From a virus, in IMG/VR virus record IMGVR_UViG_3300045988_177154, positions 160,001 to 224,000 of that record: a stretch of 64,000 nucleotides of DNA; one strand, given 5' to 3'. Under the pieces are notes generated by a model, which was not told the origin of the DNA, ran no database searches, and saw only the letters and a list, made by a program, of their open reading frames with translations. Of the stretch, positions 3,581 through 51,340 are shown one piece after another (the first letter of the stretch is position 1; each line of letters begins with the position of its first letter). A program made the position numbers and the translations under genes.

Positions 3581-3692
3581 TTTAAGCGATTTTAAGCAGT
3601 TTTTCTTTAAAGTCGATACATTTATCGAAATCACGATTTTAGGATTTTACTGTATTACTAATGACGATATAACAACCCTCAAAATCAGTTTT
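3581..3692 (+). repeat. dispersed intergenic repeat, copy R1
   Basis: Blocks taagcgattttaagc, TCGATACATTTATCGA (3613-3628), tgacgatataac (3662-3673) and aaaatcagtt are shared with copies at 11.8, 26.6, 33.4, 39.5 and 51.2 kb. Confidence 0.85.
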
Positions 3693-3779
3693 ATAAAAAA
3701 TATTTTTAACATTTTTATTGACATTAGTCTAGTTATATAATATAATAGACACAAATATAAAAAAGAAAGTAGGACTACT

Positions 3780-4943
3780 ATGAATACTAAAGAGAAAGAA
3801 ACATTAGCATCGAATACAGAACTTGCTAAAGAAGTATTAGCAACTCAAATGCTAAATACAAACGTAGAAGAGCTTGATTATTCATTAGCGGCACTTAAAG
3901 AACAAGACCGTGTTAAAGCTGTTCAAATTATGAAAGACCTTGATGAAAATAATTACTCATCATTGGATAATTTTGGGCAAGATGTTTATGATAAAGTAAA
4001 CGTTAATGCTAACAATGTTCTTTCAAATGTTAGAGGTAAAGATATTTCCAACTTAGGTTTAGACCTAGACACATTGCTTGAGAAAGTTAACAGTATCTCA
4101 CCTAAAGATATTAACAAAGCTGACCCTAGCAAAGCATTGTTCAAAGATATTTTTGGTTTTGCTCGCCGACACTTGTATCGCCTGAAAAATCATTATAGCT
4201 CATTGGATAGTCAAGTAGATACAATTGCAGAAAGCTTAGAATTATCTGTTGCAGAATTGCAAAATGACAATCGTACTTATGAAGCTCTTAAAGAACAAGC
4301 AAAACAAACATTTGAAGAATTGAATGCTTATATTGCAGCTGGAGAAGCTAAAGTCCTTGAATTAGGTCATACAATTGATGAAACCAATAAATCTATTGAA
4401 AATGATAACACTTCTAATAAGATGAGTTTGACTACACAAACGACTTCTCTTGTAAATTATCAAACACGACTACGCAAAAAGACTCAAGATATGCGTAACT
4501 TACAATTCTATCTTGCGTTTATTCAATACCCATCAATCAGCCAATTGCAATCTGATAATGAATTGGTAATCAATAATATTCGTGATACAATTCAAAACGG
4601 ATTACCTATCTACAAAACTAACTTGACAACAATTCTTGGAGCACTACGTACTCGTAAAGCTATTGAACAAACAAAAGCTGTTCGTGAAGTTATCAATAAA
4701 CAAATTTCTCTTGCTGTAGATATGGTTCAAAAGAACGCCGAAGATATTTCAAAATCTGCTATGGAAACAACTATTGATACACAAGTAATTATTGACGCTG
4801 CTCGTAAAATGCAAGAAACTCATGAAAAACTATCTGCTGTTCGTAATGAAGCAGTCAAGGCATTTGATGAACAATCTAAGGCTTTGGAAGAAGCAACAAA
4901 TAAAATTAACAATCATTTGAAAATCGTTGGAGGAGCTAAATAA
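3780..4943 (+). CDS. TelA/YaaN-family toxic anion resistance-like protein
   Basis: Collinear with the B. subtilis YaaN/TelA pattern, e.g. LNAYIAAGEAKVLEL versus LNVYIAAGELKLEEL. Confidence 0.8.
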   Translation: MNTKEKETLASNTELAKEVLATQMLNTNVEELDYSLAALKEQDRVKAVQIMKDLDENNYSSLDNFGQDVYDKVNVNANNVLSNVRGKDISNLGLDLDTLLEKVNSISPKDINKADPSKALFKDIFGFARRHLYRLKNHYSSLDSQVDTIAESLELSVAELQNDNRTYEALKEQAKQTFEELNAYIAAGEAKVLELGHTIDETNKSIENDNTSNKMSLTTQTTSLVNYQTRLRKKTQDMRNLQFYLAFIQYPSISQLQSDNELVINNIRDTIQNGLPIYKTNLTTILGALRTRKAIEQTKAVREVINKQISLAVDMVQKNAEDISKSAMETTIDTQVIIDAARKMQETHEKLSAVRNEAVKAFDEQSKALEEATNKINNHLKIVGGAK

Positions 4944-4945
4944 AA

Positions 4946-5812
4946 ATGGGAATGAATGATGTATTGACTTTGAATCTTGAAAATAAGAAGTATTATTGTT
5001 TTTATTGGAATAACCATCTTTATCAGATGAAAGATTTGAAGTCAATCTTCGGCCCCCAATTAACAACTTCTATTTTCTATGATTTAATTAACAATGATAA
5101 TGAAGAGGCTGCAGTAATTGTAGAAGAAGATACTATCAATTACTCAGTTCTTGACATTGAATCGTCTATTTTAGATTTCTTACCTAATGGAAAACAAACT
5201 TTAATTTACGAAGCTATGGCTAATGATGAATTAGAAGATTATGACAAACAACTAATCTATACTAATCATTTTAAATGTTTCAACTCCTTTGATTTGATTA
5301 AAGCAATGGTGGAAGTAAATGATAGTTATTTTAATTTCATGCTTGATGATTATATTAACAATCATGGAGCTTTCTTCCCTATTGAAATTTACTTCAATAA
5401 TGATAATAAAGAAATAACAATTAAAAATCCATTTCAAATTAACTCTTCAATTGAAGAAACTTTAAAACTAAAAGAAGATTTGAGTAATTTCTATATTGAA
5501 GAAAATCATCTTGGTAAAGAAATTGACGAATACCAAAAATATAAATCAACACAATTGCCTAATAAAGGTATTATCCAATTAACTGAATTTGTCTTAAATA
5601 CAGAAAAAGAAAACTCTGTTTTTGATTATGAAAATCTATTCTATAAACAATTGCCGTCATTGGTGTTGCTAAGAAGTCGTGATTCTTTAGAAACAAATAT
5701 TACTGCTTATCAAGCTGAAACAAAAATTTGCTTGGAATTTGCTAAAAAAATTTATGAAAGCATTTCAAGAGAACTAAAATATATTAAACTTATTCAAGAG
5801 AGGTATTTGTGA
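4946..5812 (+). CDS. hypothetical protein (operon with the telA-like gene)
   Basis: Starts 3 nt after the telA-like stop, with a GGAGG RBS inside the upstream gene. Confidence 0.55.
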   Translation: MGMNDVLTLNLENKKYYCFYWNNHLYQMKDLKSIFGPQLTTSIFYDLINNDNEEAAVIVEEDTINYSVLDIESSILDFLPNGKQTLIYEAMANDELEDYDKQLIYTNHFKCFNSFDLIKAMVEVNDSYFNFMLDDYINNHGAFFPIEIYFNNDNKEITIKNPFQINSSIEETLKLKEDLSNFYIEENHLGKEIDEYQKYKSTQLPNKGIIQLTEFVLNTEKENSVFDYENLFYKQLPSLVLLRSRDSLETNITAYQAETKICLEFAKKIYESISRELKYIKLIQERYL

Positions 5813-6156
5813 TGTTTGAATTTTTCTCAGCGCTTTTTTCTCAAAGAAATACAATCAAGGAAGATAAGCAAACTAATAAAGAATTTGTTAAAAGAAAAAG
5901 AGAAGTATTATCTATTCTAAAGGATTTAGATGATATTGATTTGAATTTTGCTTCAAGAGCACGATTAGATATAGAAAAACTAGAAAAAATTCTAAAAGAT
6001 AATGAAGCTATAATTGAACTATCATTTGGAAATTTATTAGAAGAAGCTCTAACAACTTTAGATTTGATTGAAAATAAAGCTATTGAAATTAAAACTACTA
6101 ATAAAACAATGACAGATGATTATGTAATTCAAAGAGCTATTCAAAATTTAAAATAA
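5812..6156 (+). CDS. hypothetical protein
   Basis: The ATG overlaps the upstream TGA (TGATG). The ORF track start at 5809 is a GTG. Confidence 0.5.
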   Translation: MFEFFSALFSQRNTIKEDKQTNKEFVKRKREVLSILKDLDDIDLNFASRARLDIEKLEKILKDNEAIIELSFGNLLEEALTTLDLIENKAIEIKTTNKTMTDDYVIQRAIQNLK

Positions 6157-6189
6157 AAATGAGTGAACTGATAAAGTTCACTATTTTTT

Positions 6190-11799: not shown

Positions 11800-11920
11800 T
11801 TTAAGCGATTTTAAGCGACTCTAAGCTGTTTTTATTATAAGTCGATACATTTATCGAAAATCAGTTTTTACAGTCATAGCGTTTCACTAGTGACGATATA
11901 ACGATATTCAAAATCAGTTT
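11800..11920 (+). repeat. dispersed intergenic repeat, copy R2
   Basis: Contains TCGATACATTTATCGA (11842-11857), tgacgatataac and aaaatcagtt. Confidence 0.85.
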
Positions 11921-16127: not shown

Positions 16128-16379
16128 AACTATTGTAAGATAGTTTAAGCATTTGTCAGAACAAGACTTCAAATCCGTACTTGCACCACTACGTACAAAG
16201 CAATCATAAGACCAGTTCATAAGAGTGGATATGAACTACTAAAAGACAGAATGTTAGTTCGATTCTGACAAAAGACTTGTTAATATTTCTTATCATTTGG
16301 CTTAAAGAAGTTTTACAAGGTGACGATGGTTTGGTTCTGAAAAGGCAAAAGGGTTACAATGCCGTTTCTTTTTATTTTT

Positions 16380-16453
16380 GGACCATTAGCTCAATTGGTC
16401 AGAGCACCCGGCTCATAACCGGATGGTTGCAGGTTCGAACCCTGCATGGTCCA
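16380..16453 (+). tRNA. tRNA with CAT anticodon (Ile2/lysidine-type or Met)
   Basis: Cloverleaf GGACCAT..GCTC-AATTGGTCA-GAGC..loop CTCATAA..GCAGG-TTCGAAC-CCTGC..ATGGTCC-A. Closely resembles B. subtilis tRNA-Ile(CAU). CCA is not encoded. Confidence 0.85.
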
Positions 16454-16588
16454 TTCCTAGTTTGGCATATAGTCGACTATGCTAATATTGGTAGGGCCCG
16501 TTAGTGACCCCATATTGAGTTCTAAATCCAGTAACGTAACGGACGATAGTTCTGAATATGAATGTAGGTTCGATTCCTATCTAGGAAA
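16454..16588 (+). ncRNA. 135-nt non-canonical tRNA-like element
   Basis: Perfect 7-bp acceptor-type stem TTCCTAG/CTAGGAA and canonical T-arm GTAGG-TTCGATT-CCTAT. It has a D-arm-like CTA-ATATTGG-TAG but about 60 nt of excess sequence, and I can fold no canonical anticodon arm. Confidence 0.45.
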
Positions 16589-16617
16589 TAAAAATTTAAA
16601 TTTTTTAAATTTTTCTA

Positions 16618-16645
16618 TTGACTTTGCTTAAAATTGTGATATAAT
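16618..16645 (+). promoter_or_regulatory. sigma-A type promoter (extended -10) of the second tRNA unit
   Basis: TTGACT, 16 nt, (TG)aTATAAT. Confidence 0.65.
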
Positions 16646-16693
16646 AATATTATCGGATATGACAAAAGCATCTAAATGATGCTCCTTTCTTAT

Positions 16694-16767
16694 GGCCTGC
16701 TAGCTCAATTGGATAGAGCACACGCCTTCTAAGCGTGCGGTTATAGGTTCGAATCCTATGTGGGCCA
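16694..16767 (+). tRNA. tRNA-Arg (TCT)
   Basis: GGCCTGC..GCTC-AATTGGATA-GAGC..CACGC-CTTCTAA-GCGTG..ATAGG-TTCGAAT-CCTAT..GTGGGCC-A. Confidence 0.9.
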
Positions 16768-17144
16768 TTACTTAGACTCGGACAGCTATCTCATTTAATA
16801 TAGGAAAAATACATTAAAGATACAGTCACCAATTTTTTAAAACAATTTTAAAACGAATTTACGAGTCTAGAATTTAGGAACGAACAGCAATCCTTTTCTA
16901 AACAACTATTAAAGCTAAATAATAATTTGAAATGAAAAAGAGAGTTCCTAGTTTGATTTAAGGGGTTTCTTGTGAAGTTAAATTAGTTCAAAACTAATAA
17001 CTCCTATAAAGCGGGGCCTTTGATTTCCCCCGCTTGAAAATCACTAAAAATAAATGCTCCTAAGAATTTATTTTTTGTTTTTTTCGTTTCTTTTCATTTC
17101 ATTCCGCTTGGGTAATACTTCCTCCTGTTACCCAAGTACATTAT

Positions 17145-17215
17145 TACGGGTTAGTGAAAAGGTATCACATAGGGCTCATTACCCTAAATTGGGGGTTCGA
17201 ATCCCTCGCCCGCAA
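17145..17215 (+). tRNA. tRNA with CAT anticodon and an initiator-like anticodon stem
   Basis: TACGGGT-TA-GTGA-AAAGGTA-TCAC-A-TAGGG-CTCATTA-CCCTA-AATT-GGGGG-TTCGAAT-CCCTC-GCCCGCA-A. It has three G:C pairs at 29-31:39-41, an A-C mismatch at 2:71, and a 4-nt variable loop. Confidence 0.6.
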
Positions 17216-17237
17216 TTTCCATTGGCTACCACCGACA

Positions 17238-17294
17238 AAAAGCTCACTAATTCCAATCATAAAGATTGAAAATTAGTGAGCTTGGTGTTTTTTA
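17238..17294 (+). terminator. terminator of the tRNA unit
   Basis: Long stem agctcactaatt/aattagtgagct plus a T-run. Confidence 0.7.
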
Positions 17295-17317
17295 TAAACA
17301 TGAAAGAAGGTTAATAA

Positions 17318-18424
17318 ATGAAATATAGTTACTCATACTATAATGAAGAAGATTTTGATACTTATGTTAAACAATTTGATAATTATTCTTTGCTTCAAAG
17401 TAGAGAATGGGGTGCAGTAAAAAGCCCTATATGGAAAAATAAAAAAGTTTTATTCTATGAAAATGAAAAAGTAGTAGGAACTGCCCTAATTCTTATTAGA
17501 GAAATTGCTTTTCATAAAAACTTTATCTACATTCCTTATGGGCCGCTTTTTGATTATTCTAATAAAGAATTATTTAACTTTGTAACAGAAAGCTTAAAGA
17601 AAATTGCTAAAGAAAATAAAGCAATTTTTGTAAAAGTAGTTCCACCTGTATTTGATGATAATTCTATTAGTGTCGATTTCAAAATTAACGGTTGGGTAGA
17701 AAATGTTACTGAAAAATCTTTTGATTCTATTCAACCAAAATTAAATGCTGTAATTAAAGATTTCAAAATGAGTAAAAGAATGAAACAAGAAAGACGAACA
17801 ACAGAAAATAAAAATGTACATTCTGTTTATTCTATTGACACTGAAGCTTCTTTTGAAACATTATTACATGATTTTTATTCTTTGACTAAATTAACTGAAA
17901 AAAGACAAGGTATTAAATTAAGAAATAAAGATTATTTCAGACAATTACTATATAGATACCCAAATTCATTCATTACTGTTTCTTATATTGATAAGGAAAA
18001 ACAAATTGCTAAATTAAATGAAGAATATAATAAATCAAATAGTGAAAAAGCTAAACAAGAATTAGAAAAACTTAAACATAATCAAGCTAAAAACATTCCG
18101 ATTTCAGGCACTCTTACTGTAATTTATGGAGATACGGCAGAATTACTCTATGCGGGATTTGACGATAATTTCAAATCATATAATTCTGCTTCTTATTCTT
18201 GGAGTAATTCTATTATGAAAGCTTTTGAGCTTAATCCTAATCTTAAATATGTAAATTTAGGTGGAGTAGAAAATGATGGGCACTTGCTAAACTTTAAAAA
18301 GAAATTCCACCCAGAGATTAGAACTTCTTGTAATGAATTTGATTTACCAATTAGTCCTTTATACTATTTATTCAAATTTGCTCTAAAACATAAGAAACTT
18401 ATTCTCAAATTTATCAAAAAATAA
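17318..18424 (+). CDS. FemAB/MurM-family aminoacyl-tRNA-dependent peptidoglycan branch peptide transferase
   Basis: N-terminal pattern F..YV.....LLQSREWGAVKS..W......Y.....VG.ALILIR.......IYIPYGP..DY, plus a central coiled-coil insert, as in FemX/MurM. Confidence 0.75.
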   Translation: MKYSYSYYNEEDFDTYVKQFDNYSLLQSREWGAVKSPIWKNKKVLFYENEKVVGTALILIREIAFHKNFIYIPYGPLFDYSNKELFNFVTESLKKIAKENKAIFVKVVPPVFDDNSISVDFKINGWVENVTEKSFDSIQPKLNAVIKDFKMSKRMKQERRTTENKNVHSVYSIDTEASFETLLHDFYSLTKLTEKRQGIKLRNKDYFRQLLYRYPNSFITVSYIDKEKQIAKLNEEYNKSNSEKAKQELEKLKHNQAKNIPISGTLTVIYGDTAELLYAGFDDNFKSYNSASYSWSNSIMKAFELNPNLKYVNLGGVENDGHLLNFKKKFHPEIRTSCNEFDLPISPLYYLFKFALKHKKLILKFIKK

Positions 18425-18563
18425 AATTACTTGATATAATATATAAAGAGGGGTTAACTACTACTCTTCTTTATATATTGATTGTCAATAAATTTAATCT
18501 TAATGGTTGCAAAATAAATTTATTTTTGATACAATATTTAAAATGATATTTTATAAACTTTTT

Positions 18564-18652
18564 GGAGAGGTACTCAAGTCTGGTTAAGAGGACGGTTTGC
18601 TAAGCCGTTAGGTCGTTAATTCGGCGCGTGGGTTCGAATCCCATCCTCTCCA
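18564..18652 (+). tRNA. tRNA-Ser (GCT), class II with a long variable arm
   Basis: GGAGAGG..anticodon loop TTGCTAA..variable arm..GTGGG-TTCGAAT-CCCAT..CCTCTCC-A. A TTGCAA-N17-TACAAT promoter lies upstream. Confidence 0.9.
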
Positions 18653-18696
18653 TATTTTATACATTAAAAAACTTTCAATAAGAAAGGAGCATAACT

Positions 18697-22635: not shown

Positions 22636-22692
22636 ATATAAATTAAAAGTTATTTAGCTTATCCTAAATAACTTTTTTATATTTAGAAAGGA

Positions 22693-22775
22693 GTCTAAGC
22701 TGTTTTATATATAGGCAATAAAAACTATCATATATTACCGTAAACTGTCTTAGCTGCTGTTTTAACAACAGCTAA
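22693..22775 (+). repeat. degenerate copy (R4) of the ctaagctgttt-containing repeat
   Basis: gtctaagctgttttatatataggcaataa...; inverted relative to R3. Confidence 0.5.
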
Positions 22776-22890
22776 TATGATTTTAAAGTAACACCTTATC
22801 TTTATTAAATATTGATAGTTTAACTATAATATAAAAACCTAAAATAAAAGAATAATATAAATAAAAGAAGAAATTTAAAAGGAGTACAAA

Positions 22891-23840: not shown

Positions 23841-24323
23841 ATGAATGGAATTGTTAAAAATGAATATACTGAAATTCAAAAGTATTTTGATGATTACTAT
23901 AAAGAACAATTAGAAAAATATGAAGAGTTGAAGTATTATGATAATTACTTATTTACGAACATTGAGGACGAACCAATTTATTGGGGATTTGGTATTATTG
24001 TTCTAATATTAGTTAGTATAATAGCTGACAAGTCTCAATATGAATTTTGGAACTATGTGTTTTTTGCAGTTTTAGGAATTTTTATTTTATTCACAATTTT
24101 AATATTCTTCAAAGCTGTATTTTGGAATTATGAGTTTAAAAAATCTAAAAAGACTTTCTTTAAACATTATTATAAATCTAAAAATATTAGAACAGTAACA
24201 AGATATTTAGGTGTTAATAAATCAGATTTGCTTTTTAATGAAGATTATATTATAATCGGTCTTAATATTAAAGATGAAAAACAACTAAATAAACTAGAAA
24301 GAGAACTTAAAAATGGAAAATAA
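23841..24323 (+). CDS. tandem-paralog 2-TM protein, member 1 of 5
   Basis: Same architecture as the next four ORFs: conserved N-terminal segment of about 35 aa, two TM segments, and a conserved C-terminal segment. Confidence 0.6.
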   Translation: MNGIVKNEYTEIQKYFDDYYKEQLEKYEELKYYDNYLFTNIEDEPIYWGFGIIVLILVSIIADKSQYEFWNYVFFAVLGIFILFTILIFFKAVFWNYEFKKSKKTFFKHYYKSKNIRTVTRYLGVNKSDLLFNEDYIIIGLNIKDEKQLNKLERELKNGK

Positions 24324-24873
24324 TTTAGTAGAACTTAAATACGATAAAGTAAATGAATATTTTGAGAATTTCAAGAAGAAATATACAAGTAATTATGAAG
24401 AAAACAAAACAAAAGGCTATCGTACTGTAATTCCTTATCGTATGTTAATCAGTCCCACTATTATGAGTGTAATTAGTATCGTTGTTGCTTATGTAACAAA
24501 TACTATATTATCAGATTTACCAAAAATAAACTCGAATGATACAGCTGGGGCAATATATAGTATATATGAAGTTTTAGTATCATGGATATTTCCAGTAATG
24601 ATTCTTACTTCATTATCTCACCTTTTAGTAACTTTTGTTAGAATGGGGTTCAATTCTTATGACGTACCTATTTCTTACAAAAAAATAGACTACTATAATA
24701 AAATCAAAACAAGAATGTTAAATGAGATACAAACAGATTTAAACACTCCAATTACAGAGAATATGCTTATTTTAGATGCAAATGGGTTGATTGTTGCTCC
24801 TAATCTAAGTAATAATGAAAACAAAAAGATTTTTGGAGAAATAGAAAGGAATCTTAAAACAAGTGAAAAATGA
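24313..24873 (+). CDS. tandem-paralog 2-TM protein, member 2 of 5
   Basis: MENNLVELKYDKVNEYF...ITENMLILDANGLIVAPNLSNNENKKIFGEIERNL; overlaps both neighbours. Confidence 0.65.
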   Translation: MENNLVELKYDKVNEYFENFKKKYTSNYEENKTKGYRTVIPYRMLISPTIMSVISIVVAYVTNTILSDLPKINSNDTAGAIYSIYEVLVSWIFPVMILTSLSHLLVTFVRMGFNSYDVPISYKKIDYYNKIKTRMLNEIQTDLNTPITENMLILDANGLIVAPNLSNNENKKIFGEIERNLKTSEK

Positions 24874-25432
24874 TTTAGTAGAACTAAAACTTGATAGAAT
24901 TGACCGCTATTTTGAAAAATTTAAAACAAAATATAAACTTCATTATGAACTTAATAAAACAAATAAGACACATTTGGTATTACCTTATCAGAAGTTAATA
25001 ATGCCTGTAATATTTATTTTTATTGGTATTATTACTTTTCTTATGACTCGTGTTATATATTGGCAAATAAGCAATTTTTCATCTAGCATGACATTATCAA
25101 GTTTTAATGAAGCTGCAATGTTGCTCATAAATATTTTATCTATTGTTTTATTGGGTGTACTCTCACTTTTGATTGTGACTCATCTTATTGACTTTTTTAA
25201 AAATATTCATAAAGAAACTATTGAATATACGAAAAAAGAATACTACAACAAAATTAAATCTATTATGATTGAGCAAATCCAATCAGAATTAAGTAATCTA
25301 ATTACTGAAGATATGCTTACATTTGATTTAGATGGGTTAATTATAGCTCCAAACTTAAATACTAATGAAAATATAAAGTTATTTAAAGAAATAGAAAGGG
25401 ATTTAAAGTTAAATGAGCAACAATCTCATTGA
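24863..25432 (+). CDS. tandem-paralog 2-TM protein, member 3 of 5
   Basis: MKNDLVELKLDRIDRYF...ITEDMLTFDLDGLIIAPNLNTNENIKLFKEIERDL. Confidence 0.65.
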   Translation: MKNDLVELKLDRIDRYFEKFKTKYKLHYELNKTNKTHLVLPYQKLIMPVIFIFIGIITFLMTRVIYWQISNFSSSMTLSSFNEAAMLLINILSIVLLGVLSLLIVTHLIDFFKNIHKETIEYTKKEYYNKIKSIMIEQIQSELSNLITEDMLTFDLDGLIIAPNLNTNENIKLFKEIERDLKLNEQQSH

Positions 25433-25997
25433 GCTCAAATATGATAGAGTCAAAGGATTCTTTGATGAAATGATAGCTAAATATGAAGTTGAGTATCAAA
25501 ATAATAAAACAACAACTGAAAAAATATATGTTAGTAATGTTAGAAGAGTATTAGAGTCTATCCTAATTATTTTTATTATGATTGCTTTTTGTGGGGGGCT
25601 AATTTGGTTCATAAAGAGTGGCTCCAATTACACTAAGACTGAATTTACAGATAAATTTATTAAGGTAATAGATGAAGATGTAATTCCATTATTAGCACCA
25701 TTTGTTGGTATTATTTTTGTTGGTTTGATAAATATTAAACTAATGAAAGTCATTCTTGGAATAAGGCCTAACAATGAAACAAGAACAATAACAAAAACTC
25801 TATCAAAAAAGAAATATTTCACCAAAATCAAAGCAGATATGCTCTATTACGTTAGATACAATTTAAGTTATTCCATTACAGAAAATATGCTTATCTTTGA
25901 TAAATATGGTATGATAATTGGGCCCGACTTAAGTACTAATGAAAACAAGAAAATATTTGGCGAAGTAGAGCATAAATTGGAGCAAAAGAATGAATAA
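25413..25997 (+). CDS. tandem-paralog 2-TM protein, member 4 of 5
   Basis: MSNNLIELKYDRVKGFF...ITENMLIFDKYGMIIGPDLSTNENKKIFGEVEHKL. Confidence 0.65.
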   Translation: MSNNLIELKYDRVKGFFDEMIAKYEVEYQNNKTTTEKIYVSNVRRVLESILIIFIMIAFCGGLIWFIKSGSNYTKTEFTDKFIKVIDEDVIPLLAPFVGIIFVGLINIKLMKVILGIRPNNETRTITKTLSKKKYFTKIKADMLYYVRYNLSYSITENMLIFDKYGMIIGPDLSTNENKKIFGEVEHKLEQKNE

Positions 25998-26508
25998 TAT
26001 AGTAGAATTTGGTTACCCTAATTTAGATAACTACTTTAAGGATTTGTTAGAAATCCAAAAGAAAAAATATGAAGTAAAAAAAGAGAAATGGCAAAATCAT
26101 TTTAAGGAATTTTTCTCTAAAGCTATTCCAGTTGTAATAAGCATGATTATTGTTTCAATCTTAAATCATTTAATAACTTTAGATTATCCTAATGCTGTTA
26201 AATTGATTCTTGTTATAGGTGATGTTATATCAGCTATTTATGTTTTTGTGAATGGTTTTGTTTTCCTATTTCATCTTCCATTATTCTTTATTTCTTCATA
26301 TGTTGTATTTAAAGAGATAGCAAATTACAAAAGCTATAACGAACGAGAAACACTTAGAACAATTAAAGATGATTTAGATGTTTATTTAAATAGCTCAAAC
26401 GTTATTATCAATTCTAAGGGCTTCATAACCGATTTAAAACGTGATGATAAAGAGCTCTGTCAAAAAATAGAAGAACATTTAAAAACAAACAAAAAAGAAG
26501 TTATTTAG
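25990..26508 (+). CDS. tandem-paralog 2-TM protein, member 5 of 5 (divergent)
   Basis: MNNIVEFGYPNLDNYF...INSKGFITDLKRDDKELCQKIEEHL. Confidence 0.6.
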   Translation: MNNIVEFGYPNLDNYFKDLLEIQKKKYEVKKEKWQNHFKEFFSKAIPVVISMIIVSILNHLITLDYPNAVKLILVIGDVISAIYVFVNGFVFLFHLPLFFISSYVVFKEIANYKSYNERETLRTIKDDLDVYLNSSNVIINSKGFITDLKRDDKELCQKIEEHLKTNKKEVI

Positions 26509-26532: not shown

Positions 26533-26646
26533 AACGCTTACTGCTGTTTTAAGCTGTTTTTATGAAGAGTCGATATATTTATCAAAAATAGATTTTTACT
26601 GTTTTAGCGTCTTACTAGTGACGATATAACATATACTAAAATGAAT
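26533..26646 (+). repeat. dispersed intergenic repeat, copy R5
   Basis: gctgttttaagctgtttt, TCGATATATTTATCAA (26570-26585), actgttttagcg, tgacgatataac. Confidence 0.8.
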
Positions 26647-26673
26647 TAGAGCAAATTAAAAGAGAGGTATAAA

Positions 26674-27846: not shown

Positions 27847-28236
27847 CTATTCTTTTTCTTTTTCTTGAGTTTTCTTAATGAAATCAATAGCATGATAGAG
27901 AATTTCCATAGGTGAGCCACATAAAGCCCCTAGATTATAGACAATTCCATTTTCAAAGCAATAATCTTCATCAATGACTTCCCTTAATTCAATAAGCAAA
28001 TTCTCAAATTCTTTACTTTTAAATTCTGAGGGAATATCTTCTCGAGCACTGTACAAAAATTCTTTTTCCTCAATAGGATAAACTCTATCACCGTTAATTT
28101 CTAAAAGATTTGCTTTTGTATCTGGGTAAAAGCCAATTAAAAACGTACCATCTTTTGTTTCTTTTATAACAGCACCTTCAATAGCAACACGTTGTCCTTT
28201 TTTAAGATTTTTCTTGTAAATATAAGGATATACCAT
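27847..28236 (-). CDS. hypothetical protein
   Basis: Co-oriented with 28254-29063; the terminator overlaps the stop. Confidence 0.45.
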   Translation of the reverse strand: MVYPYIYKKNLKKGQRVAIEGAVIKETKDGTFLIGFYPDTKANLLEINGDRVYPIEEKEFLYSAREDIPSEFKSKEFENLLIELREVIDEDYCFENGIVYNLGALCGSPMEILYHAIDFIKKTQEKEKE

Positions 28237-28253
28237 AAATTACCTCAAATTTT

Positions 28254-29063
28254 CTATTTTGATAACAAATATTCCAAGCCACCTTTAAGTTGATTCAATT
28301 TAAGTTTTTTACTTAATTTAGTAACAACTAATTCACGAGTAGCATTTCGTCCGAATGAAAAGATTTTATTTTTATTGTAAAATACGTTATCATCTTCAAT
28401 ATAATAATCTTTATCTTTTTCTGCTTTTACTTGATAATCAGATAGAATTTTGTTAAGTTCTGAAGCACTAGGATTCTTTTTGTTATCCCAAATAATAGTT
28501 TCATCACTGAACCAAAAGATAAAATCACCTACAGAAACAGAGTTAATAGCATACCTCCCCAATATGATTGTACCTTCTTCCTTTTGAAGTCGATTTAACA
28601 AAATGTATCTAGCCACTATTCCATTCATAACTTCTTCAATTAAACAAGTGCCAAAGTTCATATTAAGATTTTCTAATTTTTCATAATTCCAATGAGCAGT
28701 AAAATCATCATAACAATTTGAATAAGTAAAGATTCTTAAATGACTCTCTATATCGTCTTTCATGAATTTTTTATAGCCTTTATTTTCTTTATTAAAGTAT
28801 CTAATTCCAATATTTGCTATTTCTGCCAAATCTTTAATAGGCGACACTTCGTATTTTTCAACTAATTCAGACAACCAATCAGTTTGTTTGAAATGGTAGT
28901 CCCAATAACCATAATCTCTATTAGTCATTCTGATAAGTGTTTTAAAATCTTCATTCTTTTGAGTGATTTCTCTATATTCAATTGCTTTCTTAGCTTCTTC
29001 TTCTGATTTGTAGTATCGCCCAGCAACTTTATACACTACTTCTTTTTCGATTTTATAATCCAT
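28254..29063 (-). CDS. hypothetical protein
   Basis: Long unambiguous ORF; no family recognised. Confidence 0.5.
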   Translation of the reverse strand: MDYKIEKEVVYKVAGRYYKSEEEAKKAIEYREITQKNEDFKTLIRMTNRDYGYWDYHFKQTDWLSELVEKYEVSPIKDLAEIANIGIRYFNKENKGYKKFMKDDIESHLRIFTYSNCYDDFTAHWNYEKLENLNMNFGTCLIEEVMNGIVARYILLNRLQKEEGTIILGRYAINSVSVGDFIFWFSDETIIWDNKKNPSASELNKILSDYQVKAEKDKDYYIEDDNVFYNKNKIFSFGRNATRELVVTKLSKKLKLNQLKGGLEYLLSK

Positions 29064-32183: not shown

Positions 32184-33284
32184 TTAGACTAAGTCAATGT
32201 TTATAACGTTTTCATAAGAAATTTTTGAACTGTTGAAATTCGGTAAATTAAGGACTTTATTATTCAAATGAATTGGTTTTCTATCGTATTCTGAGTCATT
32301 AAAATTATAGGCTGCATTAAGAGCCATTCCTCTGTATTTTATAATTATTTCCTTAGCAACTTCGGTAGAAAAATATTTTTTAATGATAAGAGCTAATTCT
32401 TTTAGCTCTTTTGGTTCTTTATATCTAACTTCAAATTCATCTGACTTAATTTCATCTAAGGGAATTTCATCATAGTCATAATAAGTAATGTCTTTTGTCT
32501 TGTTATAAGCTTCAATCGTCCAATCATAATACTTAAACTTTTGAATTTCTTCATCAGTCATTTCTGAAATAAACTTATTATAGCTTTTCGGCCCAACACC
32601 TTTTACTCCAGCAATATTATCAGATTTATCCCCTCTAATCATCTTGAATAAAAGAATGCTATTATAAGGAACTTGTACTTCTTTTGTCATTCCAATTGTT
32701 TTGAAATAAGCTTCATAGTTGTCTTTGCTAATCATTTCATAATTATAAATATACGGATGTGGCTCAGAATGAGAAGTGTTATTTCTTGGACTTCTTCTGT
32801 ATAGAGTTACTTCATCATCAATTAAAGGTGCTAAATCAAAATCATTAGTTAAAATATAAATATGATTGTATTTTTTACTTTTCTTAGCGACTCTAACAGC
32901 TTCTTTAATTAAATCATCTGCTTCGTAGTTAAATTTTTTAATTGCTGGTTGTTTATATTGTTTTAATAATTGACTAATTGATTCTTTTAGTAATTTAAGT
33001 TCATCATTTCTTTTATGTCTATTATCTTTATATCCATTAGGGAAATGCTCTTCAAAGTATTTATTACGAGAAATTAGTTTACTATCTTCAAATATAAGCA
33101 CTTGCCCTAAATTAGTTATTTTATCAATAAAAGAAAAAATCTTTTTATATATTCCGTCCTCTAAAATTTTAAACTGATTATCTTTGTATTCATAATCAAT
33201 TCCCTCTTTAAATCCGATTGTATAATAGTATCTGTAAATTACATGGCTCAAATCAATTAGAAATAAATTCTGTTTATCTGTCAT
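32184..33284 (-). CDS. 5'-3' exonuclease / flap endonuclease (PIN-like plus H3TH)
   Basis: LFLIDLSHVIYRYYY, LTNDFDLAPL, GDKSDNIAGVKGVGPKS. Confidence 0.8.
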   Translation of the reverse strand: MTDKQNLFLIDLSHVIYRYYYTIGFKEGIDYEYKDNQFKILEDGIYKKIFSFIDKITNLGQVLIFEDSKLISRNKYFEEHFPNGYKDNRHKRNDELKLLKESISQLLKQYKQPAIKKFNYEADDLIKEAVRVAKKSKKYNHIYILTNDFDLAPLIDDEVTLYRRSPRNNTSHSEPHPYIYNYEMISKDNYEAYFKTIGMTKEVQVPYNSILLFKMIRGDKSDNIAGVKGVGPKSYNKFISEMTDEEIQKFKYYDWTIEAYNKTKDITYYDYDEIPLDEIKSDEFEVRYKEPKELKELALIIKKYFSTEVAKEIIIKYRGMALNAAYNFNDSEYDRKPIHLNNKVLNLPNFNSSKISYENVINIDLV

Positions 33285-33326: not shown

Positions 33327-33439
33327 CGCTCATTGCTGTTCTAAGCTGTTTTTCTTGATTGTTGATAGTTTTATCGAAAATCAGTTTTAACTGTTTTAGC
33401 GTTTCACTAATGACGATATAACGACCATTAAAATCAGTT
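33327..33439 (+). repeat. dispersed intergenic repeat, copy R6
   Basis: gctgttctaagctgtttt, TTGATAGTTTTATCGA (33362-33377), aactgttttagcgtttcac, tgacgatataac, aaaatcagtt. Confidence 0.8.
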
Positions 33440-33496: not shown

Positions 33497-33739
33497 TTAT
33501 TTTTTGTTTTTAAATTTAGCAAAGCTACCCATCAAATCTTTATTGTCTACTCTCTCACCTGTATAAAGTTCATCAATTAACTGTTTATATTGTTCAACAG
33601 TCATTAGCTCGCCTTTAAATATTTTATTATCCTTATATAACTCTTTCCATTTTTTAGTTAATCTAATATTTTCTTTTTTAGTAGTTTTTGTAGTAGTACT
33701 TTTCTTGCGAGTAGTAGCTTTTCTTTTTCTTCTTGCCAT
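33497..33739 (-). CDS. hypothetical small basic protein, paralogous to 26674-27024
   Basis: KKWKELY...YKQLIDELYTGE...LMG. Confidence 0.5.
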   Translation of the reverse strand: MARRKRKATTRKKSTTTKTTKKENIRLTKKWKELYKDNKIFKGELMTVEQYKQLIDELYTGERVDNKDLMGSFAKFKNKK

Positions 33740-39437: not shown

Positions 39438-39595
39438 AAAAAGAGCTATAAAATATAGCTCTTTTTCTTTTTATTTCAAACTGTAAAATAAGCGACTTTA
39501 AGCTGTTTTACTGGATAGTCGATACATTTATCGAAATCCAGTTTAAACTGTTTTAGCGTTCGCTATATGACGATATAACAACCCTCAAAAGCAGT
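39438..39595 (+). repeat. dispersed intergenic repeat, copy R7, including the prsA terminator
   Basis: Terminator aaagagctataaaatatagctcttt, then ctgtaaaataagcgactttaagctgtttt, TCGATACATTTATCGA (39519-39534) and tgacgatataacaaccctc. Inverted partner at 51190-51340. Confidence 0.85.
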
Positions 39596-48813: not shown

Positions 48814-48993
48814 ATGCTATATTTTTATGTATTAGGTGCAGTAGCTTTGCTCATTATATTGATTTCCATATTTAAATTTTTATGGAGAGTTGAGATATTT
48901 TTCGCAAAATTAAGCTTAGCTTGGCAGATTATTTCTTGGCTTGGTTTAATCGTAGCTTTTGTTATTGCCGTGTGGTTTATATACTTCAATTAA
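48814..48993 (+). CDS. small 2-TM membrane protein (59 aa), absent from the ORF track
   Basis: AAGAGG RBS. MLYFYVLGAVALLIILISIF...WLGLIVAFVIAVWFIYFN; hairpin downstream. Confidence 0.35.
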   Translation: MLYFYVLGAVALLIILISIFKFLWRVEIFFAKLSLAWQIISWLGLIVAFVIAVWFIYFN

Positions 48994-49053
48994 GTTGTAG
49001 CTCTTTGCTACAACTTTTTCTTTGATATGCTACTAAAAAAGGAGCATTTATAA

Positions 49054-50193: not shown

Positions 50194-50356
50194 AAAACAA
50201 AAAAGCTAACAATATGTTAGCTTTCTTTTTTATAACCTCTATTTAATTAAAAATATTTCCAAAAATGGATAGTAAATCAAATCCTATTAGGCTATATTTG
50301 AAAAGTTATATCATGAGTTTTGGAATAATAAAAATAAAAAGAAAGGTTTTGCTAAT

Positions 50357-50812
50357 ATGAAATTTTACTATCACAACTTTAAAGATTTAAGAGGAAACCA
50401 CATTAAATATTTTGCTAATGGAGATGATTTTAAAGTAGAAGAAGTTTTTACTACTATCTCACACAAAAACGTTTTAAGAGGTTTTCATACATCAAGCAAA
50501 CAAGAAAAACTTATCAAAGTATTAAATGGTTCATTACATCTAATTACTGTAAATGAAGAAACAAAAGAAATTACTCATTATGACATGAATGTTGATTCTG
50601 AGCCAATCTTTATTCCATTGAATACTTGGGTGGGCTATGTTATCAAAGAAAACAATACAATTGTTAATTATATTTGCTCTGGTAAATTCTCACCTGAAAC
50701 AGATTTAACTTGCTCTCCTAAATCATTCGCAAATGAATGGCTATGGCCTATTCCTTATTCAGATATTATCATTTCTGAAAAAGACGACCAGGCAGAAATC
50801 AGAACTTTATAA
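50357..50812 (+). CDS. RmlC-like cupin (dTDP-sugar epimerase/isomerase-like)
   Basis: F.DLRG......F........SHKNVLRGFH......KLI.V..G.......; 151 aa, shorter than canonical RmlC. Confidence 0.5.
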   Translation: MKFYYHNFKDLRGNHIKYFANGDDFKVEEVFTTISHKNVLRGFHTSSKQEKLIKVLNGSLHLITVNEETKEITHYDMNVDSEPIFIPLNTWVGYVIKENNTIVNYICSGKFSPETDLTCSPKSFANEWLWPIPYSDIIISEKDDQAEIRTL

Positions 50813-50849
50813 AAGAAAAGGATTTTTTAATCCTTTTCTTTTTTTGAGC

Positions 50850-51095
50850 AAAAAAGCCTAAAAATACTCAAAATCACCGGTAAAATACTCAATTTCAGCC
50901 CCAAAATACTCAAAAAGAGCCATAAAATACTGATAAAAAAGGGTAAAATACTGTTTTTTAACATTACGCCATTTTACGGCTGCTGTAAGCCGTTGAGCAA
51001 GAACAGTTAAAGCGATTTGCAAAACAGCGCTTTTTCAGCTAATAACTATAAATAACTAAAAAATAACAAAATAAATAACTCAATAAATAACCAGC
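50850..51095 (+). repeat. left arm of an inverted repeat pair of about 250 bp
   Basis: Reverse-complement match by eye (roughly 85-90 percent) to 54676-54925, including the iterons and an ATAAC-phased AT-rich block. Confidence 0.85.
50861..50965 (+). repeat. iteron array: five AAAATACT(C/G)(A/T)-type cores on an exact 21-bp register
   Basis: Cores start at 50861, 50882, 50903, 50924 and 50945. Confidence 0.85.
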
Positions 51096-51189
51096 TTCGT
51101 AAGCTCTTACGAGCATCACTCGCTGAATTAAGTAAGTAAAATGCTTTAAGGAGTATTTTTTATTTTAGAGAAATGCTCTAATTAAATAT

Positions 51190-51340
51190 GAGGGTTGTTA
51201 TATCGTCATATAGTTAATGCTAAAACAGTAAAATCATAATTTCGATAAATGTATCGACTTTTAACAAAAACAGCTTAGAGTCGCTTATTTTACAGTTTAA
51301 AACAAAAAGAAAAAGAGCTATAAAATATAGCTCTTTTTAT
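51190..51340 (-). repeat. dispersed intergenic repeat, copy R8 (inverted), including the ligA terminator
   Basis: Reverse complement of the R7 unit: gagggttgttatatcgtca, TCGATAAATGTATCGA (51242-51257), cagcttagagtcgcttattttacag, and terminator aaagagctataaaatatagctcttt. Confidence 0.85.

What the first reader, a model, noticed from the sequence alone, without database searches (positions are those of the whole stretch)
3581..51340. Dispersed composite intergenic repeat of about 115 bp, usually placed just 3' of terminators
There are six clear copies: 3581-3692, 11800-11920, 26533-26646, 33327-33439, 39438-39595 and 51190-51340 (inverted). They share ordered blocks: taagcg/ctaagctgtttt; a 16-bp palindrome TCGATA-CATT-TATCGA; cagtttt(a)actgttttagcg; tgacgatataac; and aaaatcagtt. 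Five of the six sit immediately downstream of the terminator of a co-oriented gene (folD, the PrgA-like gene, the paralog array, prsA and ligA). In three copies the terminator hairpin itself (aaagagctat..atagctcttt) is part of the repeat. No ORF is associated. The placement at operon 3' ends resembles cassette-boundary, REP/BIME or attC-like elements. The internal palindrome resembles a dimeric protein-binding site such as a parS-like centromere, an operator or a nucleoid-organising site.
Basis: seen in the sequence. Interest (0 to 1): 0.66.

Follow-up and report, generated by a model that had tools for sequence, protein, structure and literature searches.

The report
Conserved intergenic repeat of giant plasmid
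A roughly 116-base non-coding DNA module occurs 20-27 times between genes on a family of about 300-kb plasmid-like elements from human-associated metagenomes; its short motifs and their exact spacing are kept by selection, so it probably serves as a docking site for proteins rather than being junk or an RNA gene.

Summary
The window holds exactly six intact copies (79-103 bits; the next hit scores 5.6), plus one decayed copy at 22.69 kb.

The window is part of a 325-kb metagenomic contig that matches the published description of Inocles, the giant extrachromosomal elements of oral Streptococcus. The repeat was found only in this lineage: 122 copies in 15 IMG/VR contigs. It was absent from 185,579 GTDB species genomes, PLSDB, INPHARED, Rfam and the Inocle paper.

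Family-wide, orientation relative to genes is random: 32 sense, 53 antisense and 24 convergent. No copy lies between divergent genes or inside an ORF. About two thirds of the loci follow a terminator.

Between orthologous copies the motif blocks diverge 0-7%, fourfold-degenerate sites of neighbouring genes about 17%, and two internal spacers 25-36%. Spacer lengths never change (36 nt in 103/103 copies).

There is no covariation, no stable RNA or ssDNA fold, no conserved sigma-70 promoter and no empty site.

Best reading: a selection-maintained composite DNA site for one or more unidentified proteins, placed at transcription-unit boundaries. Its distribution is REP/BIME-like. It is not attC-like, and it is not clustered as parS sites are. 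The palindrome is not the most conserved part; CGATATAAC is.

The parts
3583..3692 (+). Copy 1 (core module), between folD (2703-3554) and the telA-like operon (3780-). It follows a hairpin-plus-T-run terminator found in its orthologue. The canonical promoter of the next gene lies outside the repeat.
   Evidence: 83.4 bits
11811..11923 (+). Copy 2 (core module), downstream of the 871-aa LPXTG protein gene. It carries three phased TAAGC-N5 units at its left end.
   Evidence: 100.0 bits
11764..11792 (+). Terminator hairpin AAAAGAGCTAT..ATAGCTCTTTT, part of the long form of the module shared by copies 2, 5 and 6.
   Evidence: (family D8)
22690..22790 (+). Decayed seventh copy. Block CTAAGCTGTTTT is intact and a remnant of ACTGTCTTAGC remains, but the palindrome and the CGATATAAC core are lost. 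It is preceded by a terminator 85% identical to the one before copy 3.
   Evidence: (D17)
26541..26652 (+). Copy 3 (core module), after the array of five tandem paralogous ORFs. The next ORF starts only 27 nt after the repeat.
   Evidence: 79.1 bits
33334..33439 (+). Copy 4 (core module), antisense to both neighbours. It lies between the terminator of the 80-aa gene (33497-33739, -) and the start of the 5'-3' exonuclease gene (32184-33284, -).
   Evidence: 92.1 bits
39488..39600 (+). Copy 5 (core module), between the convergent prsA-like gene and a minus-strand gene. Sub-blocks: TAAGC units 39489-39493 and 39499-39503; block B 39498-39509; palindrome 39519-39534; block D 39548-39560; core TGACGATATAAC 39568-39579; block F 39586-39595. 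It is the only window copy whose spacers extend the palindrome into a stable hairpin.
   Evidence: (102.6 bits)
39438..39466 (+). Bidirectional terminator hairpin of the long form, upstream of copy 5.
   Evidence: (D8)
51176..51288 (-). Copy 6 (core module, inverted), downstream of ligA (51337-53265, -). Its other side faces an iteron-like region.
   Evidence: (89.6 bits)
51310..51338 (-). Terminator hairpin of the long form, upstream of copy 6. Homology with a related contig that lacks ligA starts exactly here.
   Evidence: (D8)

Best explanation
What it is (well supported): a lineage-specific family of dispersed, non-coding modules of about 116 bp on a giant plasmid-like element that is probably an Inocle. 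Each module is built from 1-3 phased TAAGC-N5 units followed by two tandem half-units of the form CTGTTTT - variable patch - G(T/A)CGATA - AAAATCAG. It lies in the spacer DNA next to at least one gene 3' end, in either orientation.

How it works (inferred): the resident copies are kept by purifying selection as double-stranded DNA sites that assemble one or more sequence-specific proteins. These would be a dimer on TCGATA-N4-TATCGA, further protomers on the third CGATA half-site in TGACGATATAAC exactly four helical turns away, and on the TAAGC units. The complex would mark boundaries between transcription units, acting as a roadblock or insulator, or as a supercoil- or nucleoid-organising site, in the way REP/BIME elements are thought to act in E. 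coli. The binding protein or proteins are unknown.

New copies arose by duplication of the module, sometimes together with the upstream terminator. Copies occasionally serve as substrates for recombination that reshuffles flanks.
For: Specificity:
- The repeat was found only in related large contigs: 122 copies in 15 IMG/VR contigs, with 27, 20 and 20 in the 280-, 315- and 262-kb contigs.
- The scan of 185,579 GTDB species genomes gave only two isolated matches, in Pelosinus and Chlorobiaceae MAGs, which I take as chance.
- There was no hit in PLSDB or INPHARED, none above threshold in Rfam, and none for the motif strings in the literature library.

Selection, from pairwise differences between orthologous copies:
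- Blocks that none of the search patterns required to match in every copy: 0.05 for the left 12 nt, 0.055 for CTAAGCTGTTTT and 0.06-0.07 for AAAATCAG..GAGC.
- Fourfold-degenerate sites in the flanking genes: about 0.17.
- Spacers sp1 and sp3: 0.25-0.36.

Geometry:
- TATCGA to CGATATAAC is 36 nt in 103/103 copies.
- Block B to TCGATA is 9 nt in 86/89 copies.
- CGATATAAC to AAAAT is 7 nt in 93/93 copies.
- The spacers between these motifs vary freely in sequence.

Bimodal scores: intact copies score 79-103 bits against 5.6 or less for anything else in the window.

Not RNA or ssDNA:
- RNAalifold on 30 loci predicts only the 6-bp palindrome, with no compensatory change.
- A hand-built three-helix model shows 0 compensatory pairs and is no better than shuffles.
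- Mutual-information analysis shows no pairing signal.
- Fold z-scores are +0.2 to -1.5 in 5 of 6 copies, as RNA and as DNA, on both strands.

Not a promoter: no sigma-70-like site is conserved inside the repeat, and the neighbours' promoters lie outside it.

Placement: 0 divergent, 24 convergent, 85 tandem, none in an ORF. In the window, convergent spacers of 150 bp or more are 2/2 occupied and divergent ones 0/3.

Stability: all six window copies have orthologues at the same loci in a contig whose LigA and PrsA-like proteins are about 90% identical to the window's.
Against: - No binding protein is identified and there is no experimental or expression data.
- The palindrome is dispensable in one lineage. 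In contig 7663_73 it is disrupted (4 or more mismatches) in 10 of 20 copies, and at least four paralogues have independent small deletions that remove its left arm.
- At least one copy in the window has decayed, so not every copy is maintained.
- Spacer haplotypes are shared between different loci. Gene conversion therefore operates and could contribute to block homogeneity.
- About a third of the loci are not behind a recognisable terminator, which weakens a pure 'boundary' role.
- Most copies were collected with exact-match patterns, so conservation of the palindrome and of the 12-mer is partly ascertained. The union of three different patterns reduces this bias but does not remove it.
- The same placement is expected for any harmless insertion.
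Confidence: 0.45

Rival explanations
1. A MITE-like, non-autonomous selfish element. It spread by transposition or duplication into the least harmful sites (gene 3' ends), and its blocks are the sites a transposase needs. It has no function for the replicon.
For: - Size, A+T richness and a density of about 1 per 10-16 kb in the three large contigs, both orientations, strictly intergenic, never in divergent promoter regions.
- The two ends are imperfectly complementary (AAGCTGTTTT / AAAATCAGTT; 79% of cells pair).
- There are modular variants and long forms that carry a terminator.
- One decayed copy exists.
- The Inocle paper reports IS elements in all Inocles, and a TnpB insertion is polymorphic nearby.
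Against: - Resident orthologous copies keep their blocks about 3 times better than synonymous sites, and keep spacer lengths exactly, while spacer sequence drifts. Neutral decay after insertion predicts uniform divergence and indels.
- No empty site appeared among 517 flank-pair matches, though the sample is biased.
- All six window copies are retained at the same loci across contigs with about 90% LigA and PrsA identity.
- Paralogues are only about 70% identical, so there was no recent burst.
- End complementarity is broken, not compensated, when one end varies.
- Scans for left or right ends alone found no pair of ends flanking a gene.
- No similarity to the ends of the TnpB element.
Confidence: 0.25
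2. Sites of a site-specific recombinase (attC-like, res-like or cassette-boundary sites) that shuffle gene blocks between and within elements. The variable 7-nt patches would be crossover or overlap regions flanked by inverted arms.
For: - Blocks D and E form an imperfect 12-nt inverted repeat around the hypervariable patch sp3.
- Homology between contigs starts exactly at the left edge of the module at two loci: the ligA locus against contig 7663_73, and L018 against L019.
- The palindromic module is found flipped in some copies.
- Spacer haplotypes are exchanged among loci.
Against: - 146 of 156 orthologous pairs keep both flanks.
- Copies lie in both orientations round the whole replicon without the deletions and inversions that active sites would cause.
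- No recombinase or integrase domain appears among the recorded Pfam hits for the called genes in and around the window.
- There are no RYYYAAC/GTTRRRY core sites and no ssDNA hairpin.
- Breakpoints at dispersed repeats are also what ordinary homologous recombination gives.
- Loop flips are also what template switching at quasi-palindromes gives (established mutational mechanism; inference).
Confidence: 0.08
3. An RNA element, either a small RNA gene or a UTR motif acting on stability, termination or translation of neighbouring genes.
For: - About 10 of 30 loci lie inside apparent operons and must be transcribed.
- Copy 5 folds well (z -3.7 and -3.0).
- The central part looks like a degenerate terminator hairpin followed by TTTT, and at one locus it is replaced by a perfect terminator.
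Against: - Orientation relative to transcription is random (32 sense, 53 antisense).
- About two thirds of the loci lie beyond a terminator.
- There is no promoter inside the repeat.
- There are no compensatory changes in 30 loci, and folding energy is no better than shuffles in 5 of 6 copies.
- No Rfam family reaches its threshold.
Confidence: 0.05
4. Sites used in single-stranded form by an HUH-type or priming enzyme, such as nick, priming or ssi/sso-like sites for replication or conjugative transfer of a very long plasmid strand.
For: - The best conserved motif, CGATATAAC, and the G(T/A)CGATA / CTTGATA-like motifs loosely resemble rolling-circle nick sites (CTTGATA of the pC194/phiX174 group; TAATATTAC of circular ssDNA replicons). 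This is recalled from knowledge, not tested.
- TAGCGT, conserved in block D, matches the CS-6 hexamer of ssoA origins (recalled).
- The published marker gene of Inocles has a replication-relaxation domain, and the elements carry VirB4/VirD4.
- Like-oriented copies cluster weakly.
Against: - Both orientations are about equally common on one replicon, whereas a strand-specific site should be polar.
- No stable ssDNA fold.
- The resemblances are to 6-9-mers only.
- Orientation does not follow gene strand or GC skew.
Confidence: 0.07

Closest known systems
REP/BIME (bacterial interspersed mosaic elements) of E. coli and relatives
   Same: Dispersed, extragenic and mosaic or modular. Found after gene 3' ends in tandem and convergent spacers but not in divergent promoter regions. 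Density is about one per 10-16 kb, against roughly one per 10 kb recalled for REP. REP/BIME are proposed to bind proteins (gyrase, IHF, Pol I) at operon ends.
   Different: REPs are 35-40-nt imperfect palindromes that fold, are transcribed into mRNA 3' ends, and are linked to RAYT transposases. This module is about 116 nt and not globally palindromic, shows no stable fold, and lies beyond a terminator at about two thirds of loci. It sits on a plasmid-like element whose proposed host is a Gram-positive bacterium. There is no sequence similarity.
BOX, RUP and SPRITE repeats of Streptococcus pneumoniae
   Same: Intergenic, modular (BOX: A-Bn-C), about 100-200 nt, in both orientations, with dozens to hundreds of copies, in the same host genus as proposed for Inocles.
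   Different: BOX and RUP are chromosomal, fold into stable structures, and RUP has terminal inverted repeats mobilised by an IS630 transposase (recalled). Here no match was found in any GTDB species genome, there is no stable fold, the end complementarity is not maintained as the ends vary, and there is no sign of recent mobility.
Correia elements (Neisseria) and ERIC/IRU: MITE-type intergenic repeats
   Same: Size of 100-150 nt, intergenic, carrying functional signals (terminators, IHF sites), and sometimes found at rearrangement breakpoints.
   Different: Those have clear terminal inverted repeats, TA target duplications and insertion polymorphism. None of these was seen here.
attC sites / Vibrio cholerae repeats of integron cassette arrays
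   Same: About 120 nt and located 3' of ORFs. Only short motifs are conserved, around a variable centre.
   Different: attC sites need inverse-core and core sites, a folded bottom strand, a uniform orientation in tight arrays, and an IntI integrase. All of these were tested here and not met.
Dispersed chromosomal protein-binding sites (parS, Noc-binding sites, matS, SlmA sites)
   Same: A 16-bp palindrome suited to a dimer. Multiple copies per replicon are kept by selection and act as double-stranded DNA in either orientation.
   Different: Those are single sites of 13-16 bp, often inside genes, with region-specific distributions. This is a strictly intergenic composite of about 116 bp with five or more conserved blocks, and its palindrome is not the best-conserved part.

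Membership tests
REP/BIME | Unit is a short imperfect palindrome that forms a stable hairpin | tested here: not met
   Only a 6-bp palindrome is predicted in 30 loci. Fold z-scores are about 0 to -1.5 in 5 of 6 copies, as RNA and as DNA.
REP/BIME | Extragenic, at gene 3' ends (tandem or convergent spacers), absent from divergent promoter regions | tested here: met
   Of 109 copies, 85 are tandem, 24 convergent, 0 divergent and 0 in ORFs. In the window, convergent spacers are 2/2 occupied and divergent ones 0/3.
REP/BIME | Bound by gyrase, IHF or Pol I; associated RAYT (TnpA-REP) gene | not testable with these tools
   There are no binding data. No transposase domain appears among the recorded Pfam hits for the called genes of the window region, but the rest of the replicon was not read.
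MITE (non-autonomous transposon) | Terminal inverted repeats | tested here: inconclusive
   The ends AAGCTGTTTT and AAAATCAGTT are complementary with one bulge in the consensus (79% of cells pair). Variation breaks the pairs and there are 0 compensatory changes.
MITE (non-autonomous transposon) | Insertion polymorphism (empty sites) and target-site duplication | tested here: not met
   In 517 flank-pair matches the gap is always 90-149 nt, so no empty site was seen, though the sample is biased towards occupied sites. Three protein-anchored look-ups also found the copy present. No flanking direct repeats stood out by eye in the printed alignment; target-site duplications were not searched for systematically.
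MITE (non-autonomous transposon) | Autonomous partner with the same ends flanking a transposase gene | tested here: not met
   Scans for the left end alone and the right end alone returned only whole, truncated or internally deleted copies. The TnpB element in a related contig shares no similarity.
Integron attC / VCR | Inverse core RYYYAAC and core GTTRRRY at the ends, with paired L boxes; the bottom strand folds into a hairpin | tested here: not met
   The consensus ends are TAAGC... and ...CAGTTTGAGC. The ssDNA fold is no better than shuffles.
Integron attC / VCR | Tight one-gene cassette arrays in one orientation, next to intI | tested here: not met
   Copies lie 1-51 kb apart (mostly 4-25 kb), separated by multi-gene units, in both orientations. 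No integrase domain appears among the recorded Pfam hits for the called genes of the window region.
parS-type centromere | Palindromic ParB site(s) clustered near parAB or the origin | tested here: not met
   A 16-bp palindrome is present, but copies are spread over the whole of three contigs of 260-315 kb. The palindrome is lost in 24 of 122 copies. No ParA or ParB domain appears among the recorded Pfam hits for the window region.
Any Rfam RNA family | Score at or above the family's gathering threshold | tested here: not met
   Only four tRNAs pass in the window. A permissive scan of copy 5 gives only sub-threshold hits, the best at 26 bits against a threshold of 56.
Inocle (giant extrachromosomal element of oral Streptococcus; host replicon of the repeat) | Circular element of 245-395 kb, GC 24-32%, InoC marker (replication-relaxation domain), gyrase/LPXTG/sortase gene content, absent from isolate genomes | tested here: inconclusive
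   Contig sizes are 183-325 kb, GC is 29%, GyrB-like, LigA, LPXTG and AgI/II adhesin genes are present, and the repeat is absent from GTDB. All of this fits the description in PMC12340149. InoC itself and circularity could not be checked because only parts of the contigs are held.

The most novel reading that the evidence does not exclude
The repeats are the cis-acting half of an element-specific system: 20-27 dispersed, geometry-constrained docking sites per replicon for an unknown protein or protein complex encoded by the giant element. The system would organise or insulate its transcription units, or its folding and segregation. That would be a private 'architectural code' of a giant plasmid with no described counterpart in Gram-positive plasmids.
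Probability: 0.3. Interest if true: 0.7.

Novelty: new variant of a known kind. Interest (0 to 1): 0.5.

Why it matters
Inocle-type elements were described only in 2025. According to that paper they are very common in human saliva, are lost in liquid culture, and most of their genes have no assigned function.

- **A cis-acting handle on their biology.** The consensus can be used directly as bait to find the protein that reads it.
- **A lineage marker.** It gives a specific 12-116-nt tag to recognise contigs of this lineage in metagenomes, including those filed as viral in IMG/VR.
- **A guide to assembly and rearrangement.** It marks places where assemblies and real genomes may break or recombine.
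- **A general case for study.** Constrained spacing combined with fast-changing spacers is a clean natural example for studying how multi-site DNA-protein assemblies evolve.

If the repeat proves to be only a domesticated or dead mobile element, it is still an unreported repeat family, but of ordinary interest.

Tried and rejected
- **Rfam:** a scan at gathering thresholds and a permissive scan both gave nothing.
- **Other collections:** the pattern scan of GTDB species genomes gave only two isolated hits, taken as chance. blastn against PLSDB and INPHARED found no match. Full-text search for four motif strings returned only unrelated primer hits.
- **RNA or ssDNA structure:** rejected.
- **Sigma-70 promoter inside the repeat:** rejected. 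I also compared block E by eye with ECF-type, ComX cin-box, cre, CIRCE and DnaA-box consensus sequences recalled from knowledge. None fits.
- **Polarity relative to replication (KOPS-, Chi- or Ter-like):** rejected. Orientation does not follow gene strand or GC skew, and only weak clustering of like orientations remains.
- **Relic of IS605/TnpB ends:** no similarity.
- **Empty-site search:** none found, but the sample is biased.
- **Distant relatives:** a contig whose LigA is 28% identical has no repeat after ligA or anywhere in the 14 kb read.
- **Mini-ORF:** RTG-ACG-ATA-TAA (Met-Thr-Ile-stop) in block E was noted, but there is no ribosome-binding site, so it was dropped.
- **Walking along the 325-kb contig:** not possible beyond 10 kb from the window, so no whole-replicon map relative to ori/ter was made for the window's own contig.

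Full report
**1. The observation**

Reading the six stated places shows the same ordered blocks in each copy:
- one to three TAAGC-N5 units ending in CTAAGCTGTTTT;
- the palindrome TCGATA-CATT-TATCGA;
- (C)AGTTTTAACTGTTTTAGCG;
- TGACGATATAAC;
- AAAATCAGTT.

The repeat finder groups the five + strand copies as one family of 118 nt (68-77% identity). All six align with 72% mean column identity. The 12-mer TGACGATATAAC occurs six times, once per copy, against 0.28 expected. The palindrome is present with 0-1 mismatch in all six.

A profile built from 30 distinct loci scores the six copies at 79-103 bits and nothing else in the window above 5.6 bits. So there are exactly six intact copies.

A decayed seventh copy lies at about 22690-22790. 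It keeps CTAAGCTGTTTT and a remnant of block D behind a terminator 85% identical to the one before copy 3. Another intact copy lies about 450 bp outside the left edge of the window.

The hairpin AAAGAGCTAT..ATAGCTCTTT upstream of copies 2, 5 and 6 is shared, and it scores as a bidirectional terminator.

**2. Where the window comes from**

- The exact LigA protein of the window is encoded on metagenomic contigs of 183-325 kb. The window is bases 223,888-287,887 of a 324,989-bp ENA contig, on the reverse strand.
- GC is 27-33% across the window, about 29% overall.
- The genes include FolD, TelA, LigA, a GyrB-like protein, FtsK/SpoIIIE, HU, a 5'-3' exonuclease, LPXTG and AgI/II surface proteins and four tRNAs, among many ORFs without a Pfam hit.
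- A strict repeat pattern gave only two isolated matches in 185,579 GTDB species genomes, which I take as chance. It gave 68 stretches in 15 IMG/VR 'viral' contigs of up to 315 kb.

This fits the published description of Inocles: giant circular plasmid-like elements of oral Streptococcus, 245-395 kb, GC 24-32%, with gyrase, LPXTG and sortase genes, and absent from isolate genomes because they are lost in culture (PMC12340149). I could not check the InoC marker or circularity, so 'Inocle' is probable, not shown. That paper does not mention intergenic repeats.

**3. Census and placement**

Two more scans, for the left end alone and for the right end alone, reduced the bias of the first pattern. 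Together with a profile search they gave 122 non-overlapping copies. The contigs of 280, 315 and 262 kb hold 27, 20 and 20 copies.

Of 109 copies with ORFs on both sides:

| Position | Copies |
|---|---|
| Between co-directional genes, same sense | 32 |
| Between co-directional genes, antisense | 53 |
| Between convergent genes | 24 |
| Between divergent genes | 0 |
| Overlapping an ORF | 0 |

Inside single contigs the picture is the same. In the 280-kb contig the counts are 11 sense, 8 antisense, 5 convergent and 0 divergent.

In the window, spacers of 150 bp or more are occupied in 4 of 15 tandem, 2 of 2 convergent and 0 of 3 divergent cases. A recognisable intrinsic terminator lies between the neighbouring stop codon and the repeat in about 20 of 30 distinct loci. 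In about 10 loci there is none, and the repeat sits between closely spaced genes.

The next gene's promoter, where visible, lies outside the repeat.

The real rule is 'next to at least one gene 3' end, in either orientation'.

Orientation does not follow gene strand or GC skew. Like orientations cluster only weakly along the contigs. My own runs tests on the orientation strings give z = -2.2, -1.3 and -1.35, and the contigs are not independent.

**4. Anatomy**

- The consensus is about 116 nt.
- Its left end is a 10-nt phased array (AAGC-N6) of one to three units.
- The rest is two tandem half-units that align with each other. Only 8 of 2000 shuffles score as high.
- The family is modular. A long form carries the upstream terminator at three loci. 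A second terminator type is shared by copy 3 and the decayed copy.
- At one locus only the right half is present, behind a perfect terminator hairpin whose tip resembles the palindrome.
- In some copies the centre of the palindrome, or the whole 24-bp palindromic module, is flipped between short inverted arms.

**5. Evidence for selection**

I grouped copies into about 30 loci by their flanks and compared orthologous copies from different contigs.

| Segment | Pairwise difference between orthologues |
|---|---|
| Left TAAGC region (not required in every copy by the search patterns) | 0.05 |
| CTAAGCTGTTTT (not required in every copy) | 0.055 |
| AAAATCAG..GAGC (not required in every copy) | 0.06-0.07 |
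| Palindrome block (partly ascertained) | 0.015-0.03 |
| 12-mer TGACGATATAAC (partly ascertained) | 0 |
| Fourfold-degenerate sites of flanking genes, same groups | 0.05-0.27, mean about 0.17 |
| 40-nt flanks | 0.07-0.12 |
| Spacers sp2 and sp4 | 0.14-0.20 |
| Spacer sp1 | 0.25-0.27 |
| Spacer sp3 | 0.36 |

Despite this, spacer lengths do not change:
- TATCGA to CGATATAAC is 36 nt in 103 of 103 copies. The half-sites are therefore 42 bp apart, which is four helical turns.
- Block B to TCGATA is 9 nt in 86 of 89 copies.
- CGATATAAC to AAAAT is 7 nt in 93 of 93 copies.

With the less biased census, CGATATAAC is exact in 112 of 122 copies and the 12-mer in 101. The palindrome block is exact in only 76 and destroyed in 24. 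Ten of those 24 are among the 20 copies of one contig. There, at least four paralogues have independent 8-10-nt deletions that removed the left arm.

Uniform neutral decay after insertion cannot give this pattern of fixed blocks, fixed spacing and free spacers. Gene conversion alone cannot either, because it would homogenise the spacers as well. Resident copies are therefore under purifying selection, most strongly on CGATATAAC.

Spacer haplotypes that differ at many positions between orthologues recur at other loci. This points to patchy conversion or templated mutation. Both fast spacers sit next to, or in the loop of, short inverted repeats, and flipped loops occur. I therefore infer template switching at quasi-palindromes, but I did not test it.

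**6. What it is not**

- **Not a known RNA:**
- **Not a structured RNA or ssDNA:**
  - RNAalifold on 30 loci keeps only the 6-bp palindrome, with no compensatory change.
  - My own three-helix model pairs 87% of cells because it was read off the consensus. It has 0 compensatory pairs and equals the shuffles, and where one side varies the pair breaks.
  - Mutual information shows only local linkage.
  - Folding energies equal those of shuffles in 5 of 6 copies on both strands, as RNA and as DNA. Copy 5 is the exception because its spacers happen to be complementary.
- **Not a promoter:**
- **Not attC-like:** there are no core sites, no fold, no arrays, and no integrase among the recorded Pfam hits.
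- **Not arranged as parS sites are:** copies are dispersed rather than clustered, and the palindrome is dispensable in one lineage.
- **Not recently mobile:**
  - Paralogues are about 70% identical.
  - All six window copies sit at the same loci in a contig whose LigA and PrsA-like proteins are about 90% identical to the window's.
  - No empty site was found, although the sample favours occupied sites.
  - No pair of ends flanks a gene.
  - There is no similarity to a nearby polymorphic TnpB element.

**7. Rearrangements**

Of 156 orthologous pairs, 146 keep both flanks. In two real exceptions, homology between contigs begins exactly at the left edge of the module:
- At the ligA locus, two contigs carry unrelated small genes instead of ligA. 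They share the terminator, the repeat and the iteron region beyond it.
- The second case is L018 against L019.

This is what homologous recombination between dispersed repeats produces. It does not require a dedicated recombinase.

**8. Best explanation and rivals**

The best-supported reading is a lineage-specific, selection-maintained composite DNA site read by one or more unidentified proteins at boundaries between transcription units. It would work like REP/BIME elements are thought to work, but it is not a member of that or any other described family.

- **Shown:** specificity to the lineage, placement, block and spacing constraint, absence of fold and covariation, and stability of loci.
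- **Inferred:** protein binding, the boundary or topological role, and the template-switch origin of spacer variability.

Rivals, in order of weight:
1. a MITE-like selfish element (its main problem is the selection on resident copies);
2. recombinase sites;
3. strand-specific nick or priming sites;
4. an RNA element.

**9. Novelty and score**

No trace of the family was found in Rfam, GTDB species genomes, PLSDB, INPHARED, the literature library searched or the Inocle paper. The kind of object, a dispersed intergenic repeat at gene 3' ends, is well known. The architecture differs from the known families: it is non-folding, has multiple blocks, has strictly fixed spacing around fast spacers, and sits on a giant plasmid-like element.

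I rate it a new variant of a known kind, with interest 0.5. It is useful and testable, but its function is unproven.

Noticed in passing
window 50850-50952 and 51040-51095: Next to copy 6 lie four to five 21-nt tandem units, each ending in AAAATACT, followed by five AAATAAC motifs about 10-11 nt apart. This looks like plasmid iterons or a replication-origin region. The segment is conserved (84-91% identity) beside the repeat even in contigs where the other flank (ligA) is replaced, and the number of 21-nt units varies.
   Followed up: partly
window 6191, 14400, 33301(-), 43595(-), 59348 and 8 near-matches: The 13-mer GGAATAATATAAC (usually preceded by T, giving TGG-AATAAT, an extended -10-like motif) occurs 13 times with 2 or fewer mismatches, against 4.5 expected. 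Twelve of the 13 lie 1-70 nt upstream of a co-oriented start codon. This is probably a shared promoter of the element's genes. At 59348 it abuts the ATG, which suggests a leaderless mRNA.
   Followed up: partly
window 23841-26508: An array of five tandem paralogous ORFs (160-194 aa, period about 550 nt, no Pfam hit) is bracketed by the decayed repeat copy and copy 3, each behind the same type of terminator.
   Followed up: no
window 16379-18653: A cluster of four tRNA genes (Met, Arg-TCT, Met, Ser-GCT) lies on a plasmid-like element, interrupted by a FemAB-family gene.
   Followed up: no
L080 8363-9625 (corresponds to window about 27847-29063): In a related contig an IS605-type TnpB gene (420 aa) replaces the two minus-strand ORFs found in the window between the NERD-like gene and the FtsK/SpoIIIE gene. 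This is an insertion or replacement polymorphism unrelated to the repeat.
   Followed up: partly
L103 7739, L106 518 and 9203, L113 160 (contig IMGVR_UViG_3300007663_000073): In this one element at least four paralogous copies have independent 8-10-nt deletions that remove the left arm of the palindrome, and the palindrome block is disrupted in 10 of its 20 copies. All other blocks and the remaining spacing stay intact. This may be lineage-specific loss of whatever reads the palindrome.
   Followed up: partly
L095 1036, L111 4993 (centre flipped); L104 6952, L118 1867 (24-bp module flipped): The asymmetric centre of the palindrome (CATT to AATG), or the whole palindromic module between the ACTGCAA/TTGCAGT arms, is inverted in some copies. 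This is the pattern expected from template switching or recombination at short inverted repeats.
   Followed up: partly
IMG/VR contigs 3300007339_000098, 3300007220_000167, 3300007663_000073: Neighbouring copies tend to share orientation, for example ++++++--+-+++++----- along 315 kb. This is weakly non-random, is not explained by gene strand or GC skew, and switches near the iteron region in two contigs.
   Followed up: partly
whole window and related contigs: These elements of 260-315 kb are filed as viral genomes in IMG/VR, although their gene content (LigA, GyrB-like protein, FolD, surface adhesins, FtsK-like protein) and the literature point to a giant plasmid-like element.
   Followed up: partly
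L086 (IMGVR_UViG_3300045988_148940, 247 kb): Another large contig with 29% GC encodes a LigA only 28% identical to the window's and has no copy of the repeat. It may be a different clade of giant element.
   Followed up: no
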